The notes: generated by a model from the sequence alone, not told the origin. A stretch of DNA of 64,000 nt from Anaerolineales bacterium (GCA_020634615.1 JACKBI010000001.1:459261-523260); one strand, 5' to 3'. Counted from the stretch's first letter, positions 5,469 to 28,594 are shown. Made by a program: numbers and translations.

Positions 5469-6317
5469 ATGACCCAACACATCTATTGGCACGCTCCAGT
5501 CTGGGAAGTGCTGCTCTTGGGGTTGACCGGCTTGGCGCTTCTGGCGTGGCTGGTGTGGCGTGCTGTGCGTCGTCCTCATCCGTCAGCGGCACTCTCGGCC
5601 ATCGATCCCGCGCTGAACGACCAACCCCTTTTCTTCTTCGACCGGGTACATGGCATCGTGGCTCTCAACGATGGCGCCCAACAGGTGTTGAATACACTGT
5701 CTGCATCTCAAGATTCGCACTCTCTGGACATTCTAACTGATGCACTGCTGGAGGCGCAGGAAGAATCGCGCCTTGTCCAGCAGGCAGGATGGCCGAAGCC
5801 GGGCTATAGTCTGATAGCAGCTCCCGTTGCCGGCCAGGCGGGGAGCGTCACCGGCGTCTTCGCGTTGGTCGCGCCGGAACCGCCCCTTCTGCCGGCAGAG
5901 CGCCGTATCGATGAGCCGGCCATGCCGGCGACGGACTGGATCGAGATCGGCGCGACGTTGCGACTGCACCGGCAGCGGCCTGCGGTGCGCGTCGAGCGGA
6001 TCGATCCCACGACGACGGGGCAAGCAGCCATGGCCTGGCAGGAAAACCAGATCAGCCCCACGGAAGAGGCGCTATTGCGGCACTTGCTAACGCATTCCAA
6101 TGAAGTGCAGGCTGCGGAAGCGTTGTTTAGCGCTGTATGGCCCGACGATGAAGTGGGCACGTTCGGCTTGCGTCCTGACCAGAAGGACCGCCTACGCCGT
6201 CTGGTCTTTCAACTGCGCCAGCACGTGGAACCCGACCCGCGCGCGCCACGCTACGTGCGAACGGCTCACGGCGCGGGCTACGTGCTGTATTCGAATGGGG
6301 AGCTGGCTCTCCCATGA
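5469..6317 (+). CDS. membrane-anchored transcriptional regulator with a C-terminal OmpR/PhoB-type winged-helix DNA-binding domain
   Basis: N-terminal TM helix (VLLLGLTGLALLAWLVW). C-terminus LTHSNEVQAAEALFSAVWPDDEV…RLRRLVFQLRQHVEPDPRAPRYVRTAHGAGYVL matches the trans_reg_C pattern. Confidence 0.6.
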   Translation: MTQHIYWHAPVWEVLLLGLTGLALLAWLVWRAVRRPHPSAALSAIDPALNDQPLFFFDRVHGIVALNDGAQQVLNTLSASQDSHSLDILTDALLEAQEESRLVQQAGWPKPGYSLIAAPVAGQAGSVTGVFALVAPEPPLLPAERRIDEPAMPATDWIEIGATLRLHRQRPAVRVERIDPTTTGQAAMAWQENQISPTEEALLRHLLTHSNEVQAAEALFSAVWPDDEVGTFGLRPDQKDRLRRLVFQLRQHVEPDPRAPRYVRTAHGAGYVLYSNGELALP

Positions 6318-7870
6318 AACGCTCCAGACGTTGGCTCTCGCTGGCCGGATCGCGCCGGCTGATCGTTAGTCTCACGCTGGTTTGGCTGATGCTCATGCTG
6401 GGCTGGCTGGCGGCGCGCAGCGATGGGGTGGGCGGGCGACCGCTGGTCATCGTGTGGGGTGCCGATCCGGGCAGCTACGACCCGCAGCAGACGTCGAATC
6501 CGGTGGCTCAGGACGTTTTTCGCCACGTCTGCCAGCCCTTGTTCTATGAGGACGAGGGCGGGGCGGTGCGCGGGTTGCTGGCGGAGGATGGGTTTCAATA
6601 CAGCGATGACGGGCGGCGGCTGAGCATTCAACTACGGCCGGACATCACCTTTCACGACGGCGCCGCGCTGACCGCCGAAGTGGTGCAGTCCAGCTTTGAA
6701 CGCTTGCAGCGATTGAGCGTTTCACCCCTGCTCGCCGATCTGCGCGGTGTCGCGGTGACGGCGCAGCCCGACGGACGCACCGTGTTGTTTGACCTGCCGT
6801 CGCCCGACTTCGATTTCGTACGACTGGTGCTGGCCAATCCCTACGCAGCTATCGTGTCGCCGCTGACTCAGGAAACAAATGGACCAGGCTTCGTCGCTTG
6901 CACTGGTCCGTACCAGTTTGCAGCCAGCCTCTATCGTCCCGGCCATTCGTTGACGCTGGTGCGCTTCGCCGATTATCGTTGGCCGCCGGCGCTGTTCGCG
7001 AACCGGAGCGCGCCGCGCATCGCCCGTATTCGCTTTGACTTCATTGCCGATCGCGCTGAACGCCTCGATGCGCTGGTCGACGGCCAAGGCTGTGTCTTAA
7101 GTCTGAGCGCAGAGGATGTGAAGCAGGTAGCGGATATCCCCCGGTTTCGACTCTACGAGGCCACGGGAGGCGTCACCTATCTGGGCTTCAACTTCCAACG
7201 GGGCCGCTGGCAGGATGTGCGGGCGCGTCAAGCTGTCGCCATGGCATTGGATAAAGCCAGCCTGGCGGGTGACGGCCCTTTCCTGGTAGCTGACACGCCG
7301 CTGACGCCCAACACCGTCGGCTACGACCCCAGTGTAGCAGTTGCCGGCTATGGCTATGCTCCAGAGCGAAGTCGGAAGCTGCTGGCTGAGGCCGGTTTCG
7401 ACAGCGACGCCGAGGTGGTGCTGCTGATCCCCGAAAGCAGCACCTATCGCCAACTGGCCGCCGCCGTGCAGCAGCAGTTGCAGGCTATTGGGTTGAGCCA
7501 GATCCGGCTGCGTGAGGTTGCGCGCTCCGATATCTTGACACAGCGCCAGGATTTCGATCTGCTGTTGTTCGATTACGCCTGGGGAGACTATACAGCGTTG
7601 GGCATCTTCCTCGGCCCGGGGCCGCGCAACCTGCTCAACTACTCCGGCGGTGACGTGGCTCACCTGGTGAACCAGGCGCGCCTGACAGCGGATCTCAACC
7701 TGCGCCAGCAATACGTGAACGAGGCGCAACGGGCTGTGCTGGAACAGGCCGTCTGGCAGCCATTGCTGGTGCGGCAGATCACCTTCGCCGTGGATGGCGA
7801 GTGCGTGCAGGGCGAGCGCCAGTCTCCTTATGGAGAACTCCTCTTCTACGATGCTGACACTGCTCCCTGA
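6314..7870 (+). CDS. ABC transporter substrate-binding protein, family 5 (oligopeptide/nickel type)
   Basis: N-terminal signal/TM then a typical SBP_bac_5 architecture (…LVIVWGADPGSYDPQQTSN…, ~518 aa). ATGA overlap with the upstream regulator gene. Confidence 0.6.
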   Translation: MKRSRRWLSLAGSRRLIVSLTLVWLMLMLGWLAARSDGVGGRPLVIVWGADPGSYDPQQTSNPVAQDVFRHVCQPLFYEDEGGAVRGLLAEDGFQYSDDGRRLSIQLRPDITFHDGAALTAEVVQSSFERLQRLSVSPLLADLRGVAVTAQPDGRTVLFDLPSPDFDFVRLVLANPYAAIVSPLTQETNGPGFVACTGPYQFAASLYRPGHSLTLVRFADYRWPPALFANRSAPRIARIRFDFIADRAERLDALVDGQGCVLSLSAEDVKQVADIPRFRLYEATGGVTYLGFNFQRGRWQDVRARQAVAMALDKASLAGDGPFLVADTPLTPNTVGYDPSVAVAGYGYAPERSRKLLAEAGFDSDAEVVLLIPESSTYRQLAAAVQQQLQAIGLSQIRLREVARSDILTQRQDFDLLLFDYAWGDYTALGIFLGPGPRNLLNYSGGDVAHLVNQARLTADLNLRQQYVNEAQRAVLEQAVWQPLLVRQITFAVDGECVQGERQSPYGELLFYDADTAP

Positions 7871-7958
7871 CACCATGGATCGATTGGCCATAGATCAACA
7901 GCAGGCCTATATCTTGTGGTGTTGGCGAAAAGAACTCTGTATATCGCGTAATACCTTT

Positions 7959-8063
7959 GGGGTAGCCGCCGGAAATCACAAACAATCATGAAAAATCACA
8001 AAGTATCATGAAATCTGGGGCGGTTTTGTAGTATGGTGGAGAAGCCACCGAGGCGTTCGGTGA
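7959..8063. promoter_or_regulatory. conserved upstream element, copy A: tandem 20-bp direct repeats AATCACAAACAATCATGAAA / AATCACAAAGTATCATGAAA, then TTTTGTAGTATGGTGGA and a conserved leader
   Basis: Near-identical sequence also at 8676-8826 and 14764-14915. Each copy ends 27-35 bp before an AGGAGG RBS and the ATG of a secreted-protein gene. Confidence 0.5.
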
Positions 8064-8093
8064 ACGGAGCTTGGAAATAGAGGAGGTTTCACT

Positions 8094-8498
8094 ATGTTGA
8101 AGCGAGGCATTGGGTTGGTCGTCGTGTTTGCGCTGTTGGGCGTGTTGTTCGTGGCTGCCATAGCGTCTGCCCAGGACGGTGAAGAAGGCCCCATCCAGCC
8201 ATGGGAGATTGCACAGAAGGGCGGATACAACGTCATCGCGATTCACGAGGAAGTAGGCATAGACACATTGGACCGTGTTCATGCCTTGTTGACACAGGAA
8301 TATGGCGACAAGGTGCTGTACTGGACGGTTCAAGAAATTGATGGTGTCCAACATGTTTATGCCTACCCATACAGAGAGGGGGAAGACGCCAAGACATTCG
8401 TTGAGCTAATCGAGAGAACTGTGAATGACGATTTGGCTGTGACGTACTGGAAGCGACTACACCTTCCTGCTTGCACCAGGAGTTCTATGCGCTGCTAA
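8094..8498 (+). CDS. secreted hypothetical protein, first of two homologous ~75 aa domains. Frame ends prematurely (…VTYWKRLHLPACTRSSMRC*).
   Basis: AGGAGG RBS at 8081-8086. Signal peptide MLKRGIGLVVVFALLGVLFVAAIASAQD. Domain 1 (…LTQEYGDKVLYWTVQEIDGVQHVYAYPY…) is homologous to the product of the overlapping downstream ORF. Confidence 0.45.
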   Translation: MLKRGIGLVVVFALLGVLFVAAIASAQDGEEGPIQPWEIAQKGGYNVIAIHEEVGIDTLDRVHALLTQEYGDKVLYWTVQEIDGVQHVYAYPYREGEDAKTFVELIERTVNDDLAVTYWKRLHLPACTRSSMRC

Positions 8499-8728
8499 AC
8501 AATCGTTTCGGCGAGAAGTTGTTGACATGGAGCGTCCAGGAATTGGATGCTCTACACTATGTCTATGCATTTCCCCCCTATCCTGATCGTGATCAGAACA
8601 TGGCGTTCGCGGAGGAACTGGAGAGTTTCGTGGAGGGCTACGCCGAAGATACAACTTGCAGCAGGATAGAGGACTTCGACGCTCACTTTCCGATGATCGA
8701 CAACACGCAGGGATCACTTGGGCAGTAG
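8471..8728 (+). CDS. second homologous domain (TTG-start ORF in a shifted frame). Probably the frameshifted 3' part of the same gene.
   Basis: LLNNRFGEKLLTWSVQELDALHYVYAFPPYPD aligns with domain 1. No own signal peptide and no RBS. Overlaps the upstream ORF by 28 nt. Confidence 0.35.
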   Translation: MHQEFYALLNNRFGEKLLTWSVQELDALHYVYAFPPYPDRDQNMAFAEELESFVEGYAEDTTCSRIEDFDAHFPMIDNTQGSLGQ

Positions 8729-8826
8729 CCGCCGAAAATCACAAACAATCATGAAAAATCACAAAGTCTCATGAAATCTGAGGTGGTTTTGTAGTATGAT
8801 GAATGTGTCGCCGAGGAGTTCGGTGG
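8676..8826. promoter_or_regulatory. conserved upstream element, copy B. Includes the 3' coding end …DAHFPMIDNTQGSLGQ* of the preceding ORF, the direct repeats and the TAGTAT box.
   Basis: About 88% identical to copy C across ~150 bp. Direct repeats at 8737-8776, TAGTAT at 8792-8797. Confidence 0.5.
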
Positions 8827-8857
8827 ATGTTGAATGCCTTACGCAGGAGGTAATGAA

Positions 8858-9637
8858 ATGAGACGAACAAAATTGGAAGCCGCGTTAGCCATCTTGCTGG
8901 CGCTAACTGTGCTTCTTCAAGGTGTACAGCAAGCGTCGGCGAGCGATACGAAGCCGGGGTCTTCCTTGACACAGTATACGGTTGAAACCATAACAACCGA
9001 GTTCAGGAGACTGGATCCCTTTGTTTCCTCCGGGGATGGGAAACAGGTGTTAGATATAGAAGAAGCTAAGAAAGCTGGTTTTTCTGACACCATTCTTGCT
9101 CTCGCAGGTGAGGTGATTGATTATCAGAATGAGGTGCGTGAAATTGCCCAACAAGGCGAAAAAGCAGATGTGCGGCAAATTGATATTCCAGTGACAGGCT
9201 ATCCGTTACTTACGGAGTTTGAAGCTATGTTGAGCCGCTATCAGCCCGTCGACCAGGGAGCAACTAGAGCCCCTGACACTCACGCTTGCGGGACGTATGC
9301 CCATCCAGTTCCAAATTATACCCCTCCTCGCTCTCCCATGGGATGGTATCCTAATGCGCACAACACTTTGTTGAGCTGGGGCTTTCATCAAACGGCAGGG
9401 TATGCATGTGGAGGCGATCCCTTCGTCCCATGCGAGCGAGATTACACACGAGGACGGGGATACTCTAGCCAATACGGTTATTGCGATTCCCCCCGTTTTC
9501 GCGATCACGGAACTCGGGATGCGGCAAATCATGACATATGGATTCAATATGGAGAACCAAATCCTGAGATATTTTCCTATGGGTGGCCCTATTGGGACTG
9601 GGGATGGTATGCAGAGTGGTGGCATGACACTTACTAG
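8858..9637 (+). CDS. secreted hypothetical protein with a Trp/Tyr-rich C-terminus (…YGWPYWDWGWYAEWWHDTY)
   Basis: GGAGG RBS 7 nt upstream. Signal peptide MRRTKLEAALAILLALTVLLQGVQQASA. Cys-containing mid region (HACGTYAHP…YACGGDPFVPCERDY…GYCDSP). Confidence 0.55.
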   Translation: MRRTKLEAALAILLALTVLLQGVQQASASDTKPGSSLTQYTVETITTEFRRLDPFVSSGDGKQVLDIEEAKKAGFSDTILALAGEVIDYQNEVREIAQQGEKADVRQIDIPVTGYPLLTEFEAMLSRYQPVDQGATRAPDTHACGTYAHPVPNYTPPRSPMGWYPNAHNTLLSWGFHQTAGYACGGDPFVPCERDYTRGRGYSSQYGYCDSPRFRDHGTRDAANHDIWIQYGEPNPEIFSYGWPYWDWGWYAEWWHDTY

Positions 9638-9785
9638 TACAGCCGGGCGTAAGCAAGGTGAGGGTTGCCCGCACGATGTTATGCCTTCGACTGGCTCAGG
9701 CCAGGACTGAACGGGTCTAACACGAAAACTCGCTAGGAAACGAGGGTTATTGCTGTCAATCCAGCATCCATTCGAGCATCCAACA

Positions 9786-9829
9786 TCAGTGAAGCATCTC
9801 GCCTCACATGCGCAGCGAGATGCTTCACT
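9786..9829 (+). terminator. perfect 16-bp stem hairpin (CAGTGAAGCATCTCGC … GCGAGATGCTTCACTG) downstream of the 8858..9637 gene
   Basis: Inverted repeat seen directly, followed by a T-containing tract (ACGTATCTTGT). Confidence 0.5.
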
Positions 9830-9931
9830 GACGTATCTTGTCGTAAGGGTTGTGTACTCTCGACCCGTTTAGCATGGCAACTGTCTGGGTATTTACGCCC
9901 ACAAGTCGCTGACCAAGTTTACTGGCTTCAA

Positions 9932-10330
9932 GTGAATCATACGACTATGAATCGCAGAAAAAATGCTATCATCCTTATCGTTGTTTTCTTGATGATAGGT
10001 TGCGCCAGCGGTTTGATACTGGCAAACAGCAGAGTTGTCAAGAGACTGTTCGTAAATAACGTTTACGATAATAGGGAGCACTTTCTCAGTTGCGAAGAAC
10101 TACCTTCTCAGACCGAAGTAATGAAAATAGTAGAGGAGCACAAAGATGTAATCCGCGCAATCGAGCAAGTCCATCCAGGATTTGTCGATATAGAAATTGA
10201 CACCGCGAGTTGTCCAGGAAAAGCAGATATTGGAATCTGGTATCCGTCTCATCGAGATAGACTGGCTATTGAAGAACTCATTGACGGCGATACTTTCTTT
10301 GGAATACCGTACAGGTTACGAAATTACTAA
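9932..10330 (+). CDS. hypothetical membrane-anchored or lipoprotein-like protein
   Basis: Low-GC ORF with an N-terminal hydrophobic segment (AIILIVVFLMIGCASG). An alternative start is at 9947. Confidence 0.4.
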   Translation: MNHTTMNRRKNAIILIVVFLMIGCASGLILANSRVVKRLFVNNVYDNREHFLSCEELPSQTEVMKIVEEHKDVIRAIEQVHPGFVDIEIDTASCPGKADIGIWYPSHRDRLAIEELIDGDTFFGIPYRLRNY

Positions 10331-10561
10331 CGACGTAACCGATTTTGTCCTGTCAAGCATGATTTGATAGAAATAAATCCCCTTTCGCTTTGCCGTTTCT
10401 CCTGCTTGGCGGTTTGCTTTTCCGTGCTGCCCGACTAAAGAGAGGGTAGGCGAATTGCTACTACTGGTGTTCGCCGAGACATGAACATTATCTTTGGAAT
10501 AACACTTCTGCCGAAGTTCTTCCAGCAACTTGTACGTAATGAGGACGGCCAAAAGGGAGAA

Positions 10562-11251
10562 ATGACCATGAGAAGAAAGATCATCGTCCTATGTACAGTA
10601 TTGTCAGTGGCCATAGGAAGCACGCTGATTGTCAAAGGTCTAGAGGAAATTGCTGGTGCGGCATCCACAGCCTCGGTGTCACCTAACGAGTGGCCTTCAT
10701 TTACGATGGTGTACGAGGATTGGAGGCTTGGTTCCAACGACGAGCAGCCCCAAGTGCAAGCCGTCAAGCTGATCTACCACGACAAACGGCATTGGAAGAC
10801 TGAGCTACTAGCTCACAACGATGCCGTGGACGTCGTTGGGACATGGGCAGAATATCATGGCGCGGAAATGCGTAGCTTTGACCCGCGTACCGGAGAGCTG
10901 CGTGTGGATCAACAGGATATTCCTGAAGATGCTGTGTATGTTCCCGAGCAGTGGCTCATTCCGGGTACCATTCCCAGGTTGCTCACGCAACAAAATGCTG
11001 AGCAACTCTCCGGATCGAGTGGAGGGCTGGCTGTATTGGTGCTTGAGGAGAATTTGCCGTGTCAGGCGCCTACAGAGGCAATGTTCCGCGCTGGTATACA
11101 GCCTTGTGATAGCGAATATCGAGTATCTCGACGCGAGATCACCTATCGCGAATCTGATTTCTTGCCGGTTGGGATTGTCGATAGCCTTGATGGCGTAGAG
11201 GTTCATAGGGTAACTGTAACCGAGTTGGTCATGAAGAACGGGGAGGAGTAA
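10562..11251 (+). CDS. hypothetical secreted or membrane-anchored protein
   Basis: GGGAG RBS. Signal-anchor MTMRRKIIVLCTVLSVAIGSTLIV. Confidence 0.45.
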   Translation: MTMRRKIIVLCTVLSVAIGSTLIVKGLEEIAGAASTASVSPNEWPSFTMVYEDWRLGSNDEQPQVQAVKLIYHDKRHWKTELLAHNDAVDVVGTWAEYHGAEMRSFDPRTGELRVDQQDIPEDAVYVPEQWLIPGTIPRLLTQQNAEQLSGSSGGLAVLVLEENLPCQAPTEAMFRAGIQPCDSEYRVSRREITYRESDFLPVGIVDSLDGVEVHRVTVTELVMKNGEE

Positions 11252-11257
11252 TGCTTA

Positions 11258-12193
11258 ATGTCTATGCTTACCCATACAGAAAGAGGGACACTACTGTGCG
11301 ATTGCGAAAGCGAAGCTGCACAATTGGATAACAATAACGTGGCTTACAGCTTCAACCGTTGGTGGCTATTGCTGATCGGCATCGGCTTGGCTGCCATCCT
11401 GTTGCTTGCATTGCCCGCTTCCCAGATGCCTGAGGTGGATGCATGGTCGTTGGTCAACAAAACGCCAGACGGGTCCGCCTTTCTAGTGGATGCTGACCAT
11501 GTGGGCTATGCACGAGCTACTGTCTATCGACGTGCGAATCCCGATCAACAGGAGCCTGCCGATTCATATCACAGTCCCGTTCTTCCTCTCTCTTCCGACA
11601 CCTTTCTTTCTGAAACCTGGGCTCGCGGCGGCAACACTGGCCAAACACGAGCTACCTTTCGGGATAAAGAATCGGGGCGTTTGATTTCAATGATGATCGA
11701 CACTGGGGAGAGTGTGTTCCTTTTTGATGAAACGACTGAAAACGGGATGTGGATACCGTCGTCAGGCGCCGCTGGAGCGGACGGGCAGCGGGGGCCATCG
11801 TCTGAAGTGCCGTTGGCTGAAGGAGAAAGGGAAGGATATGCGGTGACGGACGTGGTTATCTCTTCCTGGGGGCGGCCAGCCTGGGTGGTACAACACCGCT
11901 TTGATCCTGCCTCAATGGAGGCGGACCGGCCAGGACCCAATTTCCCTTCCGACCTGGATATTCAGGCCCTCGAAACCAGGTGGGTAGTAGACAAGGAGAC
12001 CGGGCAGTTTGTTCGAACAGAACAATGGGCCAATACGCCCGCCGGCTCCGTGCTTCTCGAACGTGTCGAAACCGAGCCGTTGGAGATCTTGCCGCTGGAT
12101 AGCCTGCCCGCTACATGGCTTGAAGCGCCTGAAGATGTGCCCCAGGCCACACTGCCGGCGCTGGTGGCGCCCACCATACGCAGCGCAAACTGA
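11258..12193 (+). CDS. hypothetical single-pass membrane protein
   Basis: TM helix WWLLLIGIGLAAILLLAL after a ~35 aa cytoplasmic N-terminus. Abuts the stop of the upstream gene. Confidence 0.45.
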   Translation: MSMLTHTERGTLLCDCESEAAQLDNNNVAYSFNRWWLLLIGIGLAAILLLALPASQMPEVDAWSLVNKTPDGSAFLVDADHVGYARATVYRRANPDQQEPADSYHSPVLPLSSDTFLSETWARGGNTGQTRATFRDKESGRLISMMIDTGESVFLFDETTENGMWIPSSGAAGADGQRGPSSEVPLAEGEREGYAVTDVVISSWGRPAWVVQHRFDPASMEADRPGPNFPSDLDIQALETRWVVDKETGQFVRTEQWANTPAGSVLLERVETEPLEILPLDSLPATWLEAPEDVPQATLPALVAPTIRSAN

Positions 12194-12241
12194 ATCAACC
12201 TCAAGTTGGTGATTGTATGCAGACCTATCTGAGGAGCAACG

Positions 12242-12496
12242 ATGCAAGAATCAACCAGACATATACGTGATTCGATAAATATAGAACAGCATTGGGCGTC
12301 TCTGACCAGGCGCGAGCGTGAGGTGTTGGCGCTGGTAGCGCAAGGCAAGAGCAATCGAGAAATTGCTCAGAAACTTAGCATTACTGACAAGACGGCGGGG
12401 CATCATGTTGGTCATATCTTGAGGAAGTTGGAAGTGTCGTCCAGAACCCAAGCCGCCTTATGGGCGATCTGGACAGGTACAGCAGAAATGGGATAG
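12242..12496 (+). CDS. LuxR/GerE-family HTH transcriptional regulator (stand-alone DNA-binding domain)
   Basis: LTRREREVLALVAQGKSNREIAQKLSITDKTAGHHVGHILRKLEVSSRTQA is the classic LuxR-type HTH signature. Confidence 0.6.
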   Translation: MQESTRHIRDSINIEQHWASLTRREREVLALVAQGKSNREIAQKLSITDKTAGHHVGHILRKLEVSSRTQAALWAIWTGTAEMG

Positions 12497-12623
12497 GGAC
12501 AAGTCCCTATAGAAATAGGGAATTCTCCCGATGACAGCCCAAAGCAGAAGTGCTACAATATTGGCATCGGTGGAAAGTCCTACGAGTAAATCACCAAATA
12601 TGGTCGTAAAAGGAGCATATACG

Positions 12624-13277
12624 ATGAAATCCACAAAGTTCGTTTCCCTCTTGGTCCTTCTGGCATTGCTGACCATGGGGATCCAACCAACGTTCGCCCA
12701 CGTAATCGGTCCTAACTCGCCAATTTCGCACATCCCCCTTGCAGACGAACCAATAGTCGATGAGCCCGTAATCAGCACCGTAGAAACCCAAGAGTGGGTG
12801 CAAGGACCAGGTGAACTGGGAGGCAGATACGTAACAGTTACAAAGGTGCTGTTGTCTCAGACCGCGACTGTGCGTGTGCCTCAACCAGGATTGCCTGCAA
12901 TCCAAACTAACGTACAACCTGATTGGGTTGTTTATTCCGGGGACTACGTTATGACAATGGAGAGGTGGCTGCGAAATTCCCCTGATTGGCTAGGTAGACC
13001 TTGGGTAGATGCAGGTGGCTCCACGGCCACCAACGTCACTGCACAGGAGATACGCGTCTCTGGAACCCACTGGTATGGCGGAAGTGGTTGCAATAGCCAA
13101 GGCCCCAACTTTAGTGGGACCAATTACAACACTACCTCAGTTTCGGCACAGACGGCTCAGAATTTGTTTGGTGGCAATCAGTATCACTGCGTTAAATCAG
13201 GTACACACCAGGCAAAGATCAACGGTTCTTGGCCATTCTGGGTAACAGGTCAAGAAGGGCCCACTGCTTATTGGTAG
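12624..13277 (+). CDS. secreted hypothetical protein
   Basis: AAAAGGAGC RBS. Signal peptide MKSTKFVSLLVLLALLTMGIQPTFA. Confidence 0.5.
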   Translation: MKSTKFVSLLVLLALLTMGIQPTFAHVIGPNSPISHIPLADEPIVDEPVISTVETQEWVQGPGELGGRYVTVTKVLLSQTATVRVPQPGLPAIQTNVQPDWVVYSGDYVMTMERWLRNSPDWLGRPWVDAGGSTATNVTAQEIRVSGTHWYGGSGCNSQGPNFSGTNYNTTSVSAQTAQNLFGGNQYHCVKSGTHQAKINGSWPFWVTGQEGPTAYW

Positions 13278-13435
13278 CCTGAATTCACGAAAGACAAGTC
13301 TCGGCACGATGCAGTAGATAAAGTAGAGACGCTACCAGGGTATCGAAACTCAGGTCGAATGGTTGTGCAACGTATTAGAAATCGCTGGACTTGCTTGCTC
13401 AAAGTTCTTACGTGAGTTTGGCAATGTGTCTTCGA

Positions 13436-13470
13436 GAATGTACCAGGCAGTTGCACCGCCTGGTACATTC
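13436..13470 (+). terminator. rho-independent-like terminator hairpin (GAATGTACCAGGC…GCCTGGTACATTC, then ATTT)
   Basis: Perfect 13-bp inverted repeat with a 9-nt loop, downstream of the 12624..13277 gene. Confidence 0.5.
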
Positions 13471-13548
13471 ATTTGGTAGGCTACTATCCGCAGAGTTTTG
13501 GCCGAGTGAACCTATTGTTGTGACAAAACTTCCTCAAGGTGTATATCA

Positions 13549-14757
13549 ATGGCGCTACTGTCACCTGACAAACTCTCTGGCAAGGTAGTTATCTTGTTTA
13601 TCCTGATAGCTTCTTCATTGGGGGTCGTATTGTTGGATGATTTGGTTCTCTCGAAAAACTGTACTGGCCCCTATGTTCTTTCTCGCAGAGATTGCATGTT
13701 ACTGCGTTCTCCGTTGATATGGCTCGCGCCCGACCGTACAGTTGTATTCGCAGAGCCCGAAATTCTGCCGACGCCGGTCATTCCTATAGGGGTCAATCCA
13801 ACAGAGATTAAGGAGAATAGCCCTGAGGAGCAAATGGAAGTTGTAGGAATAGCGCAAACGAATGAAGGAGGCTATGTCAGTCTTCAAGGAACCTGGTTGG
13901 AGCAAGGAAGCGGTGATAACGCACTCTACGTCGTCGAAAACGGAGCACCGTTTATCGGGCAGCTAGAACTTGGATCTTTTGAGTCCAAACCTCGCTCTTA
14001 TATCATCAATTGCTTGATCGACTTCATCCAGTTGCCATGCGGCCCGGCGGCGCCGCTCCTACAGTTCATCACACTAGATTATGGCCAAGTCGTCAAGATA
14101 CCCATCCATATCACTGGACTAGAACCTGGGCTGCACGACCTCACGGTGGTCTTTGATCAAGATTTGGGTGTAGATCGCGACAATCCGCAGGCCGAGGCAC
14201 GTTTGCTTTCCAAAGTAATGGCAATTCGTGCAAGCATAGCTGTTGGTCGTGATACAACCCCTATCGCCCGATCGTTCCAAAGCTTGCCCATACCGCTTCA
14301 TACAACTGGTCTGGATGGGCTGGCGGTGAGTACGAAGATAATGCCGTGGGATCGGTACGGTGGGATACAGCAGAAGACGTTTCTTCAAGCTGACCCTGGG
14401 CAGAAGATCACCCTGTATCTCCACCTCTCGAATAGTCAGCCCGTCCAGGTTGATTATGCACTGTCTGCGTTTTTGGATCATCAGCAGATCCCTCTGGTCC
14501 GTCGCGGCCAAGGCCATGTACCGCTGTATGTCTCCGCCAAGTCGCAAGCGCTGTATGTGATTCCTATTGAGTTTACGTCTCCTTCCCAGCCTGGTCATTA
14601 CGAATTCGTCGTTTACGGCGAGCCATTTCCCCAGGCGCGAATGGATCTGACGAGGCAAACGTTTGAAGGACAATTAGACTACGGCCTGGGGATCGACATG
14701 TGGTCATCGTCTAAGATCTATCTCGATGTGAACGACCACAAATTGCCGCGTGAGTAA
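13549..14757 (+). CDS. hypothetical membrane-anchored protein
   Basis: Long ORF with an N-terminal hydrophobic segment (VVILFILIASSLGVVLL). No recognisable family. Confidence 0.45.
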   Translation: MALLSPDKLSGKVVILFILIASSLGVVLLDDLVLSKNCTGPYVLSRRDCMLLRSPLIWLAPDRTVVFAEPEILPTPVIPIGVNPTEIKENSPEEQMEVVGIAQTNEGGYVSLQGTWLEQGSGDNALYVVENGAPFIGQLELGSFESKPRSYIINCLIDFIQLPCGPAAPLLQFITLDYGQVVKIPIHITGLEPGLHDLTVVFDQDLGVDRDNPQAEARLLSKVMAIRASIAVGRDTTPIARSFQSLPIPLHTTGLDGLAVSTKIMPWDRYGGIQQKTFLQADPGQKITLYLHLSNSQPVQVDYALSAFLDHQQIPLVRRGQGHVPLYVSAKSQALYVIPIEFTSPSQPGHYEFVVYGEPFPQARMDLTRQTFEGQLDYGLGIDMWSSSKIYLDVNDHKLPRE

Positions 14758-14763
14758 GAGGTT

Positions 14764-14915
14764 TTGACGCTCACTTTCCTATGATCGACAGCACGCGGGG
14801 ATCACATGGGCAGCAACCGCCGAAAATCACAAACAATCATGAAAAATCACAAAGTCTCATGAAATCTGGGGCGGTTTTGTGGTATGGTGGATGTGTCGCT
14901 GAGGAGTTTGGCGAT
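14764..14915. promoter_or_regulatory. conserved upstream element, copy C (direct repeats at 14825-14864, TGGTAT box, conserved leader)
   Basis: About 88% identity to copy B, including the non-coding remnant DAHFPMIDSTRGSHGQ. Precedes the AGGAGG RBS and ATG of 14950. Confidence 0.5.
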
Positions 14916-14949
14916 GAATCTATCAGCCTAATTTGCGAGGAGGATCAAG

Positions 14950-16395
14950 ATGGCAAAACGCGCGATTTCTGGACTGTTATTGGTCTTAATTGTAGTTGCC
15001 TCGGCCCGCTCGGTCGCGGCTTCTCCCGCAGCTCAACCGATACCACCACATTGGCAATTGTCCGGTTGGTATTCTCCTGGGTTCTGGGACAACACGGTTC
15101 CAAATGGCCAGTACGCTCCTACAGGGTATCGCCACGGCCATTGGTTCTACGATGGAGGTGGCCCTCCCGAGTACGTCTTTGGCAGCATTATGGACTGGAC
15201 TCAAGCCAGAGCAGATAACGTCAGATACTACAGCAACAATCTGCGGTTCTGGTGGTGTGATTTGGTCTACATGTATTACACCCATGACCACACTGACATG
15301 AGCGGGAAACTGAATGGAGTGGGAGCCGGGACCAATATGCCCAATCCTACGTTTGATCGAGATGATGACGCACCGGCGGATGGCAGATATGAGGAATACG
15401 AGGTCGTTAGTGTCAACCAATCGTTCCCTCAGAGTAGTCCATTCTTCTATTCGTTTGTCTCATATTACGAGAAGCAAGTTTCTGGACCCGGCTACCTTTT
15501 GGAGACTCCTGCGCTTTCTGCAAAGCCGTGGTGTATGAGCGAATACAACACCTGGCGCTATGATGATCATCCTCAAAGGCTGGACTACAATGACGTAGAA
15601 CTGGGAATGGTATTGGACAGAGATACTGATAGTGTTGCTCAAACACAAAGCAATTTGTATCCGATCAGTCCTGTTAGTGGGACTATCTCTGCTGGTCCAA
15701 TACAGTTGCATACAGTAACCGATTATAGAGTACCACGTATTCTGATTGGAGCCGCATATCCTGTGAGCACCAGAAGCGATCTCGATGCCTATGTCGACTT
15801 TGTGAAGTCTGGCTTGATGACACCGTTGCGTCACGAAGATGTAAACAACGTGCTGACAATTGTGACTTTCAATGAGCCCGTGTCTCGAAAAGTTCTTGAA
15901 GAAATACTCGGCCTATCAGACGCATCTCAAATCGAGATGATCAAGGCAGTGTATTCTGACGTGAATGATCCAAACTCGGCCACTAATACCTGGACCTTGG
16001 AAGCTCATCCCGAAGGAAATTCAAACTACACTGACGGCTTAAGTACACTGGCATCAAGCATCAGTTCTATGGAATTGATGCCAAACCGAGAGGAAGCTGC
16101 CGATACTCTTGGTGAGGTTCCATTGTCACCTCGCCTGGAGATGATTGGCTTTGTCGCGATCGAACTCTGGCTTCCCATCGAACAAATTGATTATCTTAAT
16201 GAACACGAGATGATCTTCCTGGCTGATCCCCTACCAACCTATGCTCGCATGCTCGTATCTCATACAGATGAGGCTGTTCGCATCCGATCGATGAATGATG
16301 ACCTATATCAGCTGCCAGACGGCATCGAAGCATTCATCATTGCTGATTTCACCGATCTCTATTCAGAGATGCAATTCCTTTCACAAGAAAGGTAG
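14950..16395 (+). CDS. secreted hypothetical protein (481 aa)
   Basis: GAGGAGG RBS. Signal peptide MAKRAISGLLLVLIVVASARSVAASPAAQP. Confidence 0.55.
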   Translation: MAKRAISGLLLVLIVVASARSVAASPAAQPIPPHWQLSGWYSPGFWDNTVPNGQYAPTGYRHGHWFYDGGGPPEYVFGSIMDWTQARADNVRYYSNNLRFWWCDLVYMYYTHDHTDMSGKLNGVGAGTNMPNPTFDRDDDAPADGRYEEYEVVSVNQSFPQSSPFFYSFVSYYEKQVSGPGYLLETPALSAKPWCMSEYNTWRYDDHPQRLDYNDVELGMVLDRDTDSVAQTQSNLYPISPVSGTISAGPIQLHTVTDYRVPRILIGAAYPVSTRSDLDAYVDFVKSGLMTPLRHEDVNNVLTIVTFNEPVSRKVLEEILGLSDASQIEMIKAVYSDVNDPNSATNTWTLEAHPEGNSNYTDGLSTLASSISSMELMPNREEAADTLGEVPLSPRLEMIGFVAIELWLPIEQIDYLNEHEMIFLADPLPTYARMLVSHTDEAVRIRSMNDDLYQLPDGIEAFIIADFTDLYSEMQFLSQER

Positions 16396-16445
16396 ATACT
16401 GCTTCAAATCGGCCTCGGCAGCTATACAGCCCGATACATATACAA

Positions 16446-16474
16446 GGAGCGAGGCCACAATGTGTGGCCTCGCT
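16446..16474 (+). terminator. palindromic hairpin GAGCGAGGCCACA-AT-TGTGGCCTCGCTC
   Basis: Perfect 13-bp inverted repeat about 50 bp after the stop of the 14950..16395 gene. Confidence 0.45.
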
Positions 16475-16698
16475 CGCGATCTTAAGGTAACAACTCCTAA
16501 GCCAGAGACTGCATACACCTATGAGAGAACCAAATGCAACTCTCGACATCATCGCAGTAACCGGCAAACTCCCCCTGATTCTGAGAACCTCGAACTACTT
16601 ACCTGGGCATTTGCCAGGCAAGACCGAGGCACAAAACTGGCGCGAATGATCTTCTTTGTCTTCCATGATCGCAACATCCTTGGTCTGGGAAAGGCGAT

Positions 16699-17220: not shown

Positions 17221-17271
17221 CAAGGTAACCAGACGATTGCCCTACCGTTGTACTCATGCTACAATGCCCCC

Positions 17272-17595
17272 ATGAAGCCGATACCGATCAACGAGAAGCT
17301 GGTCTGGGATTACGACATCCCGGAGGATGCGCAGGAGAACGAGGCGTTTCGCCGGTGGTACCTGGCGCGGGTGTTGTCACATGGCGGTGACGCTGATCTG
17401 CGAGCGATCGGCTTCCAGACCATCCATGATTATCTTCCCGAACTCAACCTGCCCCGCGAGATCAGGGAATTCTGGTATTGGTACTTCGGCCAGCCGCACG
17501 CCAGGGAACGCTATGGCGAGCTTGACTCCACTCAAGTTGACTATGGTTATCGAACCAGCGAGTTGATGCAAGACGTGACCCATCCTAGAACGTAG
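17272..17595 (+). CDS. hypothetical protein
   Basis: ORF with the start MKPIPINEKLVWDYDIPEDAQ. No family assignable. Confidence 0.35.
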   Translation: MKPIPINEKLVWDYDIPEDAQENEAFRRWYLARVLSHGGDADLRAIGFQTIHDYLPELNLPREIREFWYWYFGQPHARERYGELDSTQVDYGYRTSELMQDVTHPRT

Positions 17596-17764: not shown

Positions 17765-17867
17765 TTCGACGCCGGTTCGCATCGGAGGATGCGAACTCCG
17801 CGGGGTCGTCTTTGCAGGTCTTCGACATCGCAGCCGGTTCGCATCGGAGGATGCGAACTCCGCGGGG
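17765..17867. repeat. two ~41-bp direct repeats (CTTCGAC…GCCGGTTCGCATCGGAGGATGCGAACTCCGCGGGG), each with an internal 9-bp stem GTTCGCATC/GATGCGAAC, separated by ~17 bp
   Basis: Seen directly. Located between convergent genes (17595 end and 17899 end). Confidence 0.5.
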
Positions 17868-26047: not shown

Positions 26048-28594
26048 ATGACAACCAACAGACCATTGTTCTATGTTCTGCTGATCGCCGCTTTCACTGT
26101 ACTCATCATCGCTGTCGCACTGGTCGGCTACAATCTGCTTTCGCTGGCGTTCGGCCAACCGCCGACGCCGACGCCCATCGCCACAGCGGCGCCCGGAGCG
26201 ACGCTGACTGCGACAGCTTCTATAACCGCTGTTCCCTCGACGACCGCGTTACCGGCGACTGTCACCCCTACCGCGTCGCCACTGCCTGGCACGCCCGATG
26301 TGCCGGCGGTGACGGTAGTCGCTGATCTGCTCAATGTGCGCTCGGGACCGGGCCTGACCTTCGACATCATCGCCACTGTGCCGGCTGGCACAGCTTTTCG
26401 CGCCGAGGGCCGGACGGAAGACGGTCTCTGGCTGCTGATCTGCTGCGTCGGCGAGCAATGGGGATGGGTGGCCAACACGGCAGAGACAGTTTCGATCAAT
26501 TTCAATCTGCTAAACCTGCCGGTGGTCACGTTCCCCGCGCCGATTGCCACCAATACGCCGCTGCCCATCTGGACCCCCGTCCCGCCGCCCTTGCCGACCT
26601 GGACGCCCATCCCGACGTGGACGCCGTGGCCGACTCCGACGCCGGTTCCACCACCTCAACCGACTGCGACGCCGGTTCCTGGCGGCGCATGGCTGGGCGA
26701 ATATTACAACAACAGCGACCTGCTCGGCGCGCCGGTGATGGTGCGCTACGATGCGGCGATTCGCTTCAACTGGGGTTTTGGCAGTCCCGCGCCCAACATC
26801 AATCCTGACTTCTTCAGCGTTCGCTGGACCACCAATCAGTGGTTCGACGCGGGCGATTACCTCTTCACGGCGCGCGTTGACGACGGCGTACGCGTTTTTG
26901 TGGACAACGTGCAGATCATCAACGCCTGGCAGGACGGCGGCGTCCGCAACGTTTCCGGGACACGCACCCTGGCTGCCGGCTGGCATGCCGTGCGTGTCGA
27001 GTACTACGAGCGAACCGGCGAGGCGCTGATCGACTTCTCCTGGCAGCGCCAGCAATATTTCCCTGAATGGAAGGGCGAGTATTACAGCAATCCTGATCTG
27101 GCCGGTGCGCCGACCGTGGTGCGCAACGATCTCGTGATTGCGTTCGATTGGGGCCTGGGCAGCCCGGCGCCCGGCATTCCAGTGGACAACTTCAGTGTGC
27201 GCTGGACGCGCAACTTCTACTTCCTGGAGTCCGCGACCTACCGCTTTGTGGTGCGCGTCGACGACGGCGCGCGTGTGCTGGTGGACGATGTCGTCGTTAT
27301 GAACGGCTGGACCGACGGGCCGGCGCGCGACTATGTTGTGGAGCGCTGGTACAACGCCGGCTGGCACAAGATCGAGGTGCAGTATTACGAACGTGTTGGC
27401 ACCGCGCTGATCTTCTTCAACTGGGCGTCGGTTCCGCCCACCGTCATGCCGGTGACTGCCACACCGACGGCGACCGCTGTGCGCACGGCGACGCCTGTGC
27501 CGACGTGGACTCCGACGCGGACGCCAACTCGCACACCGACACGCACTCCAACGGCTACACCGACCAGCACGGCAACCAGTACCGCCGTTGTTACTGCTAC
27601 CGCAACGCCAACCGCTACCGGAGGCGGCAGCGAGCCAACCGCGACACCAACGCCATCGGTAACCGCGACTGCAACAGCAACCAGTACCGCGACGCCAACC
27701 AACGTTCCCGGTGAGACAGCCACGCCGACGCCCACCGATGCTGGCAGCGAGCCCAGCGCGACGCCTACCGCCACTGCTACCGACGAACCAACCGGCACGC
27801 CAACCCCGACGCGCACCGCGACCGCAACCGTCACCGAGGAAGCGACGGCCACGGCTTCGCCAACGCTCACCACGACGGCAACCGCCACGGATGAGCCCAC
27901 CGCTACTGCGACGCCAACGCGCACGGCAACCGCAACTGCTACTGATGAACCCACCGCTACCGCGACGCGCACGGCGACTGCAACTGCCACGGAAGAGCCC
28001 ACTGCTACTGCGACGCCAACGCGCACGGCAACCGCAACTGCGACTGATGAACCCACCGCTACCGCGACGCGCACGGCGACTGCTACCTACGAGCCAACCG
28101 AGACGTCCACGCCGACACCGACGCGCACCCCAACTTCGACGCCCTTCATCACGACCCGACCAACCCGAACGCCGACGCCGGTCGTCAAGCCAACACAGCC
28201 CGCCATTCGCGCCAGCATAGCAATCTCACCGACCGCCGGCACTGTCGGCACATCGATCGTAGTGACCGGCACCAACTGGACGCCGCGTGACCGTATCGTC
28301 ATCACGATGGTGGCGGCAGATGCTGATACCACTGAACAACCGCCGGTCCTGGCTCGTGTAAGAAGTGATCGATCTGGCCGGTTCAGCGTGACCATCGTGG
28401 TGCCCAGAGACCGCAATCTGTTGAGCCAACGGCTGGTGTGGGTGGTGGCGACCAGCAGCACGGACCGCATGACCGCCACAGCGCCTTTTGCTATCCGTCA
28501 GGCCGGCGGCGGCGACGTGGCGCCGGTGGATACGCCGCCACCTGACAGCGGAATTCCGCCCGACAGCGAGCCGCCGACCTCGAGTGATGGCTAG
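26048..28594 (+). CDS. large secreted multidomain protein: signal anchor, SH3b domain, two PA14 domains, Thr/Ala/Pro-rich tandem-repeat region, C-terminal domain
   Basis: SH3_3-like ([40 protein letters not shown]). Two PA14-like blocks (GEYYNN/SNPDL…VRWT…VDDG…YYE). Repeats [18 protein letters not shown]. Confidence 0.6.
27870..28100 (+). repeat. in-frame tandem DNA repeats (~51-54 bp units) encoding [18 protein letters not shown]-type repeats
   Basis: At least 4 near-identical units visible in both DNA and protein. Confidence 0.5.

What the first reader, a model, noticed from the sequence alone, without database searches (positions are those of the whole stretch)
7959..14915. Three copies of a 105-150 bp conserved promoter/leader element, each wired to a different secreted-protein gene
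The copies at 7959-8063, 8676-8826 and 14764-14915 share two adjacent 20-bp direct repeats (AATCACAAACAATCATGAAA / AATCACAAAGTCTCATGAAA), a G-rich spacer, a TAGTAT/TGGTAT -10-like box and a ~35-nt conserved leader with a small CCGA…TCGG hairpin. Each ends 27-35 bp before an AGGAGG RBS and the ATG of an unrelated signal-peptide protein (8094, 8858, 14950). Copies B and C also carry upstream of the repeats the last ~17 codons (…DAHFPMID-T-GS-GQ) of an ORF; in B these are coding (8471..8728), in C a non-coding remnant with TAG mutated to CAA. This suggests a portable expression cassette, or recombination that repeatedly places new secreted-protein genes behind one regulated promoter. The tandem direct repeats look like a response-regulator/LuxR-type binding site, and a LuxR solo regulator (12242) and a membrane winged-helix regulator (5469) are nearby. 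No known element family comes to mind.
Basis: seen in the sequence. Interest (0 to 1): 0.8.

Follow-up and report, generated by a model that had tools for sequence, protein, structure and literature searches.

The report
Repeated regulated promoter driving swappable secreted-protein genes
The three repeats are copies of one regulated promoter plus mRNA leader, most likely controlled by the neighbouring membrane-anchored DNA-binding protein and its sensor partner, and recombination between the copies changes which uncharacterised secreted-protein genes a strain carries.

Summary
**Observation:** confirmed. There are exactly three copies, all on the + strand, each 30-40 nt upstream of a signal-peptide gene.

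**Anatomy of each copy:**
- four 10-nt phased direct-repeat boxes (wATCAyrAAn)
- an 18-nt spacer
- a 6-8 bp hairpin about 2-4 nt after the predicted start site

**Regulator link:** the same layout follows a conserved, overlapping gene pair in six further Anaerolineae lineages retrieved by protein only. The pair is a TM-anchored OmpR/PhoB-type winged-helix protein (window 5469-6317) and an orphan SBP_bac_5 protein (6314-7870). The phased TCAY triplet occurs nowhere else in 233 kb (0.12 expected). The LuxR solo is not conserved with the element.

**Hairpin:** it keeps pairing through compensatory and G·U changes, so it is read as an RNA structure.

**Recombination:**
- Copies B and C bracket a 5.9-kb, seven-gene segment that is absent from a 94-98% identical genome. 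That genome's single copy is B-like on the left and C-like on the right.
- Other strains join the same element to a third gene.
- One distant lineage independently built three copies.

**Verdict:** an uncharacterised regulon operator-promoter-leader module that multiplies locally and serves as a recombination site. It is a new variant of known kinds, and binding and transcription are untested.

The parts
5469..6317 (+). Gene for the presumed regulator (282 aa): short N-terminal ectopeptide, one TM helix (residues 11-33), an alpha/beta middle domain, and a C-terminal OmpR/PhoB-type winged helix.
   Evidence: Pfam Trans_reg_C, E 4e-11. A PDB profile search hits the WalR, RpaA, KdpE, OmpR, PhoB and ToxR DNA-binding domains. 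AF2 model pLDDT 82; Foldseek target-normalised TM 0.8 to VicR/YycF/KdpE DNA-binding domains. The family has 71 clusters in Anaerolineae/Chloroflexi, with Y6 and W7 invariant.
6314..7870 (+). Gene for an orphan, N-terminally anchored SBP_bac_5 solute-binding protein. It overlaps the regulator gene by 4 nt and is the presumed extracytoplasmic sensor partner.
   Evidence: Pfam SBP_bac_5, E 4e-54. The same pair, overlapping by 1 or 4 nt in six loci and 23 nt apart in L065, occurs in L046-48 and L061-L065. There is no ABC permease or ATPase gene next to it in the window.
7959..8063 (+). Element copy A: boxes 7974-8013, spacer 8014-8031, -10 TATGGT 8032-8037, hairpin 8046-8062 (CACCGA ggcgt TCGGTG).
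   Evidence: The syntenic copy is present in L002, L004, L015 and L033.
8094..8498 (+). Truncated gene A1. The signal peptide and N-domain are intact up to 8443, and the reading frame is lost after the deletion junction.
   Evidence: L004 has an intact 219-aa A1, 98% identical over residues 1-117. The 575-bp deletion is seen against L002, L004 and L025.
8444..8728 (+). 3' remnant of lipoprotein gene A2. Its last ~50 nt form the 'tail' that is duplicated together with the element.
   Evidence: L004 1916-2317 encodes an intact 133-aa A2 with a lipobox-like LLSAGGC; it is 90% identical to window ORF 8471-8728.
8676..8826 (+). Element copy B: A2 tail 8676-8736, boxes 8737-8776, -10 TATGAT 8795-8800, hairpin 8809-8825.
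   Evidence: (ATGAAA-18-TATGAT, 9 of 12 matches).
8858..9637 (+). Cargo gene behind copy B: a 259-aa secreted protein of unknown fold, followed by a 16-bp-arm palindrome at 9787-9830.
   Evidence: Its 44%-identical homolog in L061 (14277-15053) also sits behind an element copy. The family has 52 clusters. AF2 pLDDT 86.8, with no PDB neighbour.
8827..14763 (+). 5.9-kb strain-variable segment bracketed by copies B and C. It holds seven genes: 8858, 9932, 10481, 11258, the LuxR solo 12242, 12531 and 13549.
   Evidence: It is absent from L004, where one hybrid copy directly precedes the gene C homolog, and from L002. It is present in L021 and L024. L025/L033 lack 8827-11287.
14764..14915 (+). Element copy C: non-coding remnant of the A2 tail 14764-14824 (TAG to CAA), boxes 14825-14864, -10 TATGGT 14883-14888, hairpin 14897-14913.
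   Evidence: It starts 6 nt after the stop codon of gene 13549-14757.
14950..16395 (+). Cargo gene C behind copy C: a 481-aa secreted protein with no known family, followed by a terminator-like hairpin at 16447-16475.
   Evidence: A 37%-identical homolog sits directly behind the regulator-SBP pair and its boxes in L046-48.

Best explanation
Each copy is an activator-dependent promoter with its operator and 5' leader.

**Operator and activation (inferred).** Four 10-nt phased direct-repeat boxes (core TCAY) cover about -70 to -31. They are the binding array for the membrane-anchored OmpR/PhoB-type winged-helix protein encoded at 5469, binding head-to-tail as this family does. That protein is paired, by overlapping genes, with an orphan anchored solute-binding protein (6314). 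The partner probably senses an extracellular ligand and signals through the regulator's conserved ~10-residue ectopeptide and TM helix.

**Transcription and leader.** Bound regulator compensates for the poor -35 (ATGAAA) and recruits RNA polymerase to the TATGGT/TATGAT -10 (inferred). Transcripts begin about 7 nt later. They open almost at once with a conserved stem-loop, most likely a 5'-end protective hairpin, and continue to an AGGAGG site and a signal-peptide gene. The stem-loop's pairing is shown by covariation; its function is inferred.

**Origin and consequence of the copies.**
- The copies arose by segmental duplication that carried along the tail of the upstream gene (shown).
- Because they are near-identical direct repeats, homologous recombination between them, and with related DNA from other strains, deletes, inserts or swaps the low-GC cargo genes. 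Different strains therefore place different secreted proteins under the same signal (shown by strain comparison).
For: **Anatomy.** Sixteen copies from 8 lineages line up without gaps: 3-4 boxes, a 10-nt spacer, then TAnnnT at element positions 59-64.

**Specificity.** TCAY-N6-TCAY-N6-TCAY occurs only in these elements in 233 kb (both strands searched). It is always on the gene strand. Shuffles give 0.12 expected.

**Link to the regulator.**
- Six lineages fetched by protein, not by DNA pattern, all have the boxes right after the wHTH-SBP pair: L046, L061, L062, L063, L064 and L065, with regulators 45-58% identical in the five fetched through it.
- Gene C homologs that lack the pair in the short contigs held (L049, L055, L056-58) lack the boxes.
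- The DNA-binding domain is OmpR/PhoB type. That family binds direct repeats, for example the ToxR box TNAAA-N5-TNAAT (PMC7496328).
- In the high-GC lineages the A-tracts are gone but TCAC/TCAT stays.

**Promoter.** ATGAAA-18-TATGAT is listed by the consensus scan.

**Hairpin.**
- RNAalifold predicts 7 pairs, 3 of them with compensatory changes.
- 97.8% of cells are paired, against 23-44% when the partner is slid.
- The covariation score is reached by 0 of 500 shuffles.
- 17 of 90 cells are G·U, which pair only on the mRNA strand.

**Conservation.** In L045 the element is 90.5% identical while the adjoining gene is 76.6%.

**Recombination.**
- L004 lacks window 8827-14763, and its single copy is B-type at the 6 left and C-type at 7 of the 9 right sites that tell B from C.
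- L033 is 99.7% identical to the window up to 8801, then switches to another leader and gene.
- L061 has three ~330-nt copies carrying a remnant of the SBP 3' end.
Against: - No binding, transcription-start or expression data exist, so the regulator-operator link rests on co-occurrence in seven lineages.
- The first copy always lies next to the regulator pair. Adjacency alone cannot separate 'target of this regulator' from 'promoter that happens to follow it', although copies B, C and L061-2/3 keep the boxes away from the pair.
- Whole-leader folding energies are not better than shuffles (z -1.7 to +0.8), so the hairpin rests on conservation and covariation in 13 related sequences.
- Promoter rules for Chloroflexota are poorly known, and copies A and C fall below the scan threshold.
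- The direction of the B/C event cannot be decided: deletion in L004 or insertion in the window lineage.
- The genome and metagenome scans required an exact 28-nt pattern, so diverged copies elsewhere in those genomes could have been missed.
Confidence: 0.7

Rival explanations
1. The repeats are bound by the LuxR/GerE-type solo protein encoded at 12242, or by another dimeric HTH protein. It would recognise the two TCATGA palindromes, which sit 20 bp apart on one face of the helix.
For: TCATGA is a perfect 6-bp palindrome present twice per copy. A GerE-family gene lies inside the island.
Against: The LuxR gene sits in the 5.9-kb segment that L004 lacks, yet L004 keeps two intact elements. No GerE-family gene is called in L046-48 or L061-65, which all have the boxes. 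In L046, L061, L063, L064 and L065 the TCATGA palindrome is replaced by TCATAA, TCACAA or TCACGG, while the direct-repeat phase is kept.
Confidence: 0.07
2. The copies are ordinary relics of local segmental duplication. They are working promoters, but with no dedicated regulator link and no role in gene exchange, and the strain differences are simple deletions.
For: B and C carry a duplicated tail of the upstream gene, the signature of plain DNA duplication. No recombinase is encoded nearby. The pattern in L004 fits a single B-by-C deletion.
Against: The box array is kept in phase and position next to the regulator-SBP pair across lineages with regulators only 45-58% identical and very different GC. 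The 11258 homolog joined to the element in L025, whose junction L033 shares, is only 88.7% identical to the window gene, although L033's left flank is 99.7% identical. That points to exchange with other strains rather than only internal deletion. A second lineage multiplied the module independently.
Confidence: 0.15
3. Control acts mainly on the RNA. In this reading the conserved leader hairpin is a sensor or attenuator (thermometer, protein- or ligand-binding element), and the upstream A-rich repeats are only curved, UP-like DNA.
For: The hairpin is conserved with covariation. The boxes in the AT-richer lineages place A-tracts every 10 nt.
Against: There is no Rfam match. The hairpin is 17-19 nt long, lies 20 nt or more upstream of the ribosome-binding site, and does not sequester it in the predicted folds. 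Loop sequences are not conserved (GGCGU, GGAGU, ACGUC, AGG). The high-GC lineages lose the A-tracts but keep TCAC/TCAT.
Confidence: 0.08
4. The element is a mobile or replicative DNA element: a MITE, a transposon end, an integron-type site or plasmid iterons.
For: It is multi-copy, has sharply bounded repeats, and has 20-nt tandem direct repeats that resemble iterons.
Against: There are no terminal inverted repeats or target duplications. All copies share one orientation, 30-40 nt before a start codon. The flanks are duplicated gene tails. No transposase, integrase or Rep gene is present. Pattern scans of 185,579 species genomes, 241 million metagenome records and 2.9 million viral contigs found copies only at this locus type.
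Confidence: 0.02

Closest known systems
OmpR/PhoB-family operators (pho boxes, OmpR sites, ToxR boxes TNAAA-N5-TNAAT)
   Same: Direct repeats are phased at one helical turn, reach into the -35 region of a promoter with a poor -35, and are read by a winged-helix domain of this family that binds head-to-tail (PMC7496328; PDB hits 1GXP, 4KNY, 8B4B, 9JI5). The YRAAA-N5 periodicity here resembles the ToxR box.
   Different: The box sequence is different (wATCAyrAAn, core TCAY), with four (or three) contiguous boxes. The protein has no receiver domain. Binding has not been shown.
Co-component and transmembrane transcription regulators (VtrA/VtrC, ToxR/ToxS, CadC)
   Same: A membrane-tethered winged-helix regulator is encoded by a gene overlapping that of an extracytoplasmic partner. 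The pair lies next to fast-evolving target genes (PMC9214523, PMC10269533).
   Different: The domain order is reversed: here it runs ectopeptide, TM helix, alpha/beta domain, C-terminal wHTH, with only ~10 residues outside the membrane. The partner is a 518-aa SBP_bac_5 protein, not a lipocalin-like fold. The hosts are Anaerolineae, not enteric bacteria.
Sensor systems that use a solute-binding protein (LuxP/LuxQ, TorT/TorS, MBP/Tar)
   Same: An SBP with no transporter of its own is encoded beside a signalling protein, so it is likely to be the ligand sensor (general knowledge; introduction of PMC9214523).
   Different: In those systems the partner is a kinase or chemoreceptor with a sizeable periplasmic domain. 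Here it would be a one-component DNA-binding protein contacted through a tiny ectopeptide or within the membrane. This is untested.
Surface-protein gene families with a shared 5' expression region (Mycoplasma vlp/vsp families; integron Pc with cassette arrays). Comparison from memory.
   Same: One conserved expression module is reused for many divergent exported proteins, and gene content is changed by recombination at conserved sequence.
   Different: There is no site-specific recombinase, no inversion and no attC sites. Each copy has its own promoter. Exchange appears to be by general homologous recombination.
5'-terminal stabilising stem-loops (ompA 5' UTR in E. coli, aprE leader in B. subtilis). 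Comparison from memory.
   Same: A short stable hairpin lies within a few nucleotides of the predicted 5' end and well upstream of the ribosome-binding site.
   Different: The transcription start is only predicted and no decay data exist. The conserved CCGA/TCGG core could also be a protein-binding site.

Membership tests
OmpR/PhoB-type direct-repeat operator | Tandem direct repeats with about 10-11 bp (one helical turn) spacing | tested here: met
   Four 10-nt boxes are in exact register in the window, L062 and L063, and three in L046, L064 and L065. The phased TCAY triplet is unique to the elements in 233 kb, against 0.12 expected.
OmpR/PhoB-type direct-repeat operator | Array lies upstream of and overlaps the -35 of a promoter that lacks a good -35 | tested here: inconclusive
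   The proximal box ends 18 nt before the TAnnnT hexamer, and the -35 reads ATGAAA, ATAAAT or CACGGC. The transcription start is not mapped.
OmpR/PhoB-type direct-repeat operator | A cognate winged-helix protein of the family is present and co-occurs with the site | tested here: met
   Trans_reg_C, E 4e-11; profile and fold matches to WalR, KdpE, PhoB and ToxR DNA-binding domains. The boxes follow the regulator-SBP pair in 7 of 7 lineages.
OmpR/PhoB-type direct-repeat operator | Sequence-specific binding of the protein to the repeats | not testable with these tools
   Needs EMSA, footprinting or ChIP.
Two-component response regulator | N-terminal receiver domain with a phospho-acceptor aspartate, and a partner histidine kinase | tested here: not met
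   There is no Response_reg hit and only Trans_reg_C is found. The N-terminal part is a TM helix plus an alpha/beta domain with PAS-like strand/helix order. No kinase gene is adjacent.
Co-component / ToxR-like transmembrane transcription regulators | Membrane-tethered wHTH regulator whose gene overlaps that of an extracytoplasmic partner | tested here: met
   TM helix at residues 11-33. The regulator and SBP genes overlap by 4 nt in the window, L046, L062, L063 and L064.
Co-component / ToxR-like transmembrane transcription regulators | N-terminal cytoplasmic wHTH, then TM helix, then a periplasmic sensor domain; partner with a lipocalin-like fold | tested here: not met
   The wHTH is C-terminal (residues 157-273) and only ~10 residues precede the TM helix. 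The partner is SBP_bac_5.
Known RNA family (riboswitch, leader, thermometer) | Match to an Rfam covariance model at its gathering score | tested here: not met
   0 matches in the whole window.
Mobile element (MITE, IS end, integron cassette site) | Terminal inverted repeats or attC-type structure, target duplication, dispersed copies, and a recombinase | tested here: not met
   Only direct repeats are present and the flanks are duplicated gene tails. No transposase or integrase is found by Pfam. Copies occur only at this locus type.
LuxR-type lux box | About 20-bp inverted repeat, co-occurring with a LuxR-family protein | tested here: not met
   The repeats are direct, and the TCATGA palindrome is not conserved across lineages. 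A GerE-family gene is present only in the window's variable segment.

The most novel reading that the evidence does not exclude
The gene pair would be a new class of transmembrane signalling. An orphan solute-binding protein reports an extracellular ligand to a membrane-anchored PAS-like/winged-helix one-component regulator through a ~10-residue ectopeptide and the TM helix. Its operator-promoter-leader module would then double as a homology 'adaptor'. The adaptor lets Anaerolineae capture, duplicate and swap low-GC genes for secreted proteins of unknown fold from a shared pool. The result would work like an integron expression platform, but run by general recombination.
Probability: 0.25. Interest if true: 0.8.

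Novelty: new variant of a known kind. Interest (0 to 1): 0.62.

Why it matters
- **A rare regulatory foothold.** Anaerolineae and Caldilineales are abundant in activated sludge and sediments, but almost nothing is known about their gene regulation. Here sequence alone yields a testable regulator, its operator, a promoter with a predicted start site and a defined regulon.
- **An undescribed regulator architecture.** I found no description of an N-out TM anchor with a C-terminal OmpR-type domain and an overlapping orphan SBP gene in the literature I could search.
- **A population-level mechanism.** Duplicated promoter modules act as recombination substrates, so nearly identical strains come to express different secreted proteins under one signal.
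- **Uncharacterised cargo.** None of the cargo proteins matches a known family, and the one confidently modelled has no structural neighbour in the PDB.

Tried and rejected
**Searches that found nothing**
- Rfam on the whole window gave no match.
- Pfam and NCBIfam on the cargo proteins gave nothing except GerE for 12242, plus weak sub-threshold DUF hits.
- The scan of species-representative genomes gave only two relevant loci, both syntenic. The source genome itself is not a representative.
- In the metagenome scan, 35 of 40 loci were unrelated 10-nt satellites that share the pattern by chance.
- The viral contig scan gave 0 matches.
- The profile HMM found no degenerate copies upstream of the other island genes.
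- Literature searches found no description of this regulator family or motif. The ToxR paper by Goss et al. is not held, and the afdb50 fold library was unavailable.

**Analyses that were uninformative or negative**
- Thermodynamic z-scores of the leaders were not significant. My L064 and L065 stretches in that call started after their hairpins and tell nothing.

**Readings considered and dropped**
- TAGTAT as the -10. Position 2 varies between A and G across copies.
- CsrA-type GGA loop. The loop is not conserved.
- Iterons and MITE.
- Phased A-tract curvature alone. The high-GC lineages lose the A-tracts.

Full report
**1. Observation**

The three copies are real.
- The repeat finder reports one family at 7912-8060, 8675-8823 and 14763-14911, at 68%, 100% and 91% identity to copy B.
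- The 20-nt unit matches six times, all on the + strand, against 0.01 expected.
- The 30-nt core around the -10 matches three times against 0 expected.
- A profile HMM of 14 copies run at maximum sensitivity finds no weaker copy anywhere else in the window.
- There is no Rfam match.

**2. Anatomy**

Sixteen copies from eight lineages, written in 10-nt blocks from the first box, align without a single gap.
- Boxes: AATCACAAAC AATCATGAAA AATCACAAAG TmTCATGAAA. This is four direct 10-mers with a core TCAY, not two 20-mers.
- Spacer: the boxes are followed by a variable 10-nt block and 8 more nucleotides.
- -10: the hexamer sits at element positions 59-64, as TATGGT in copies A and C and TATGAT in copy B. 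A at position 2 and T at position 6 are invariant in all sixteen.
- -35: the consensus scan lists ATGAAA-18-TATGAT for copy B, so the -35 is poor.
- With a start site about 7 nt after the hexamer, the boxes span roughly -70 to -31.
- The hairpins (8046-8062, 8809-8825, 14897-14913) begin 2-4 nt into the transcript.

**3. Close relatives show that B and C bracket an indel**

The species-genome scan found two syntenic MAGs: L004 (Caldilineales ABC2.10, 94-98% identical) and L002 (Caldilineae HK-STAS-CHLO-19, ~88%).

- *A local deletion in the window.* Both MAGs carry 575 bp that the window lacks at 8443/8444. In L004 these encode the C-terminus of a 219-aa secreted protein A1, a terminator-like hairpin, and the N-terminus of a 133-aa lipoprotein A2. 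Window ORFs 8094-8498 and 8471-8728 are therefore remnants of two genes.
- *L004.* It has copy A and only one further copy, which directly precedes the gene C homolog. Window 8827-14763 (seven genes) is absent. That copy is B-type at all six diagnostic sites left of the boxes and C-type at seven of nine to the right. This is as expected if a crossover in the invariant boxes links the two states.
- *L002.* It lacks 8472-15753 altogether.
- *Metagenome contigs* add more states.
  - L021 and L024 match the window at more than 99.7%.
  - L033 is 99.7% identical over 6029-8801 and then switches, just after the -10, to a fourth leader variant.
  - L025 shares that junction (288 of 289 nt with L033). 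There the leader runs into a homolog of window gene 11258 that is only 88.7% identical.
- *Summary.* The same A2 tail plus element is joined to three different genes in closely related backgrounds.

**4. Distant relatives tie the element to the regulator pair**

- Gene C has only six homolog clusters.
- One of them (37% identical) lies directly behind a Trans_reg_C gene and an SBP_bac_5 gene in L046-48. The intergenic region there reads AATCATAAAC AATCACAAAC TATCATAAAT, then 18 nt, then TATCCT. This is the same layout with one box fewer.
- The regulator has 71 homolog clusters, all about 280 aa and named only from Anaerolineae or Chloroflexi.
- Five further contexts all show the overlapping or adjacent regulator-SBP pair followed, on the same strand, by phased boxes and a TAnnnT hexamer at the same offset. 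Regulator identities are 58%, 47%, 45%, 51% and 52%.
- In the two high-GC lineages the boxes read GTCATGCATC GTCACAAGCC GTCACGGCCG and GATCACAAAC GCTCACAACC GGTCACGGTC. The A-tracts are lost and the TCAY core is kept.
- Across 233 kb of window plus loci, TCAY-N6-TCAY-N6-TCAY occurs only in these elements and only on the gene strand. Shuffles give 0.12.
- Gene C homologs that lack the pair in the short contigs held have no boxes.
- The LuxR solo has no counterpart in any other locus.

**5. A parallel case**

L061 holds three copies of a ~330-nt unit. The unit consists of a remnant of the SBP gene's 3' end, the element, the ribosome-binding site and the signal-peptide codons. Each copy heads a different gene. 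One of these genes is a 44%-identical homolog of window gene 8858. Multiplication of the module together with a tail of the upstream gene has therefore happened independently at least twice.

**6. Hairpin**

- RNAalifold on 13 leaders predicts a 7-bp stem. Three pairs change on both sides: A-U/G-C 5:5, C-G/U-A, and A-U/G-C.
- With that structure 97.8% of cells pair, against 23-44% when the partner is slid.
- The covariation score of 0.438 is reached by 0 of 500 shuffles.
- Seventeen of 90 cells are G·U or U·G. These would be A·C on the other strand, which points to an RNA stem on the mRNA strand rather than a DNA palindrome.
- Whole-leader folding energies are unremarkable (z -1.7 to +0.8), and the sequences are related, so this is good but not conclusive support.
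- Its position at the very 5' end, far from the ribosome-binding site, suggests end protection. That is inference.

**7. The regulator**

- Pfam finds only Trans_reg_C.
- The family profile hits the WalR, RpaA, KdpE, OmpR, PhoB and ToxR DNA-binding domains.
- The AF2 model (pLDDT 82) shows a TM helix at 11-33, an alpha/beta domain at 38-136 with PAS-like order, a disordered linker, and the winged helix at 157-273.
- Foldseek agrees on the winged helix.
- There is no receiver domain and no kinase nearby.
- By the positive-inside rule (RAVRRPH after the helix) the first ~10 residues face outward. Y6 and W7 are invariant and A9, P10 and W12 nearly so across 54 sequences. This makes the ectopeptide a candidate contact for the anchored SBP, which is also inference.

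**8. Cargo**

- The genes behind the element have no Pfam or NCBIfam family.
- They recur in different orders among the loci.
- In the window, L061, L062 and L063 they are 9-13 GC points below the regulator pair and the flanks.
- The 8858 family (52 clusters) gives a confident model (pLDDT 86.8, pTM 0.78) with no PDB neighbour.
- In L045 the element is 90.5% identical to copy C while the gene is 76.6%.

**9. Interpretation and comparison**

The best reading is an activator-dependent promoter whose four phased boxes are the operator of the adjacent OmpR/PhoB-type membrane regulator.
- It works like pho boxes or ToxR boxes (TNAAA-N5-TNAAT, PMC7496328).
- The gene pair works like co-component or transmembrane regulators (PMC9214523, PMC10269533).
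- It fails membership of the ToxR/VtrA class on domain order and partner fold, and of response regulators on the missing receiver domain.
- The repeats are not a mobile element. They are products and substrates of ordinary recombination.

*Shown:* the copies, their register, their co-occurrence with the gene pair, stem covariation, and the strain-level rearrangements.

*Inferred:* binding, activation, the start site, hairpin function, SBP signalling, and the direction of the 5.9-kb event.

**10. Verdict**

This is a real, non-trivial regulatory module and a new variant of known kinds. Its interest comes from the undescribed regulator architecture, from a clean in-silico regulon in a poorly studied phylum, and from the recombination-driven turnover of dark-matter secreted proteins.

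Noticed in passing
window 8436-8455 (junction at 8443/8444): A 575-bp deletion relative to L002, L004 and L025 removes the C-terminus of secreted protein A1, a terminator-like hairpin and the N-terminus of lipoprotein A2. Two gene remnants are left in this genome. L033 shares the deletion.
   Followed up: yes
window 8000-16500; L061 10507-15632; L062 10652-13885; L063 10584-13637: The cargo region behind the element is 9-13 GC points lower than the regulator pair and the flanks in four lineages (for example 50.2% against 63% in the window). This suggests a horizontally shared gene pool or a distinct constraint.
   Followed up: partly
[not shown]
   Followed up: partly
L002 343-616 and about 5900-6165; window 17257-17529: In L002 a second, 81%-identical copy of the small gene at window 17248-17595 lies just upstream of the regulator gene. 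The whole regulator-SBP-cargo locus there is bracketed by direct repeats of that gene. In L004 and L059 an AbiEii gene follows the downstream copy.
   Followed up: no
window 17766-17805 and 17828-17867: Two copies (95%) of a 40-nt unit lie 62 nt apart. Each has an internal inverted repeat GTTCGCATC..GATGCGAAC. Their function is unknown.
   Followed up: no
window 27500-28110, 56300-56700, 57310-57700, 58310-58460: There are long tandem arrays of 21/27/48-nt and 12/54-nt coding repeats rich in ACC/CCG (Pro/Thr linkers). Two paralogous stretches at 54678-56297 and 59325-60968 are 72-86% identical.
   Followed up: no
window 9787-9830 and 16447-16475: A perfect 16-bp-arm palindrome follows gene 8858, and a 13-bp-arm GC-rich hairpin follows gene C. 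They are likely terminators that make each element-driven gene, or gene pair, its own unit.
   Followed up: partly
L049 1320-1420 compared with L063 13131-13637: L049 and L063 share two genes at 90-95% protein identity, but L049 continues with A1 and gene C homologs that L063 lacks. In L049 the A1 homolog keeps the leader hairpin and ribosome-binding site behind a different promoter that has no boxes.
   Followed up: partly
L003, L005, L007, L009, L012 and others: A 10-nt-period satellite (…TCATGAAATATCACAAAATATCATGAAAGA…) occurs nearly identically in many soil and plant metagenome contigs and in one 'Acidobacteriota' MAG contig. It shares the search pattern by chance and is unrelated to the element.
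   Followed up: no
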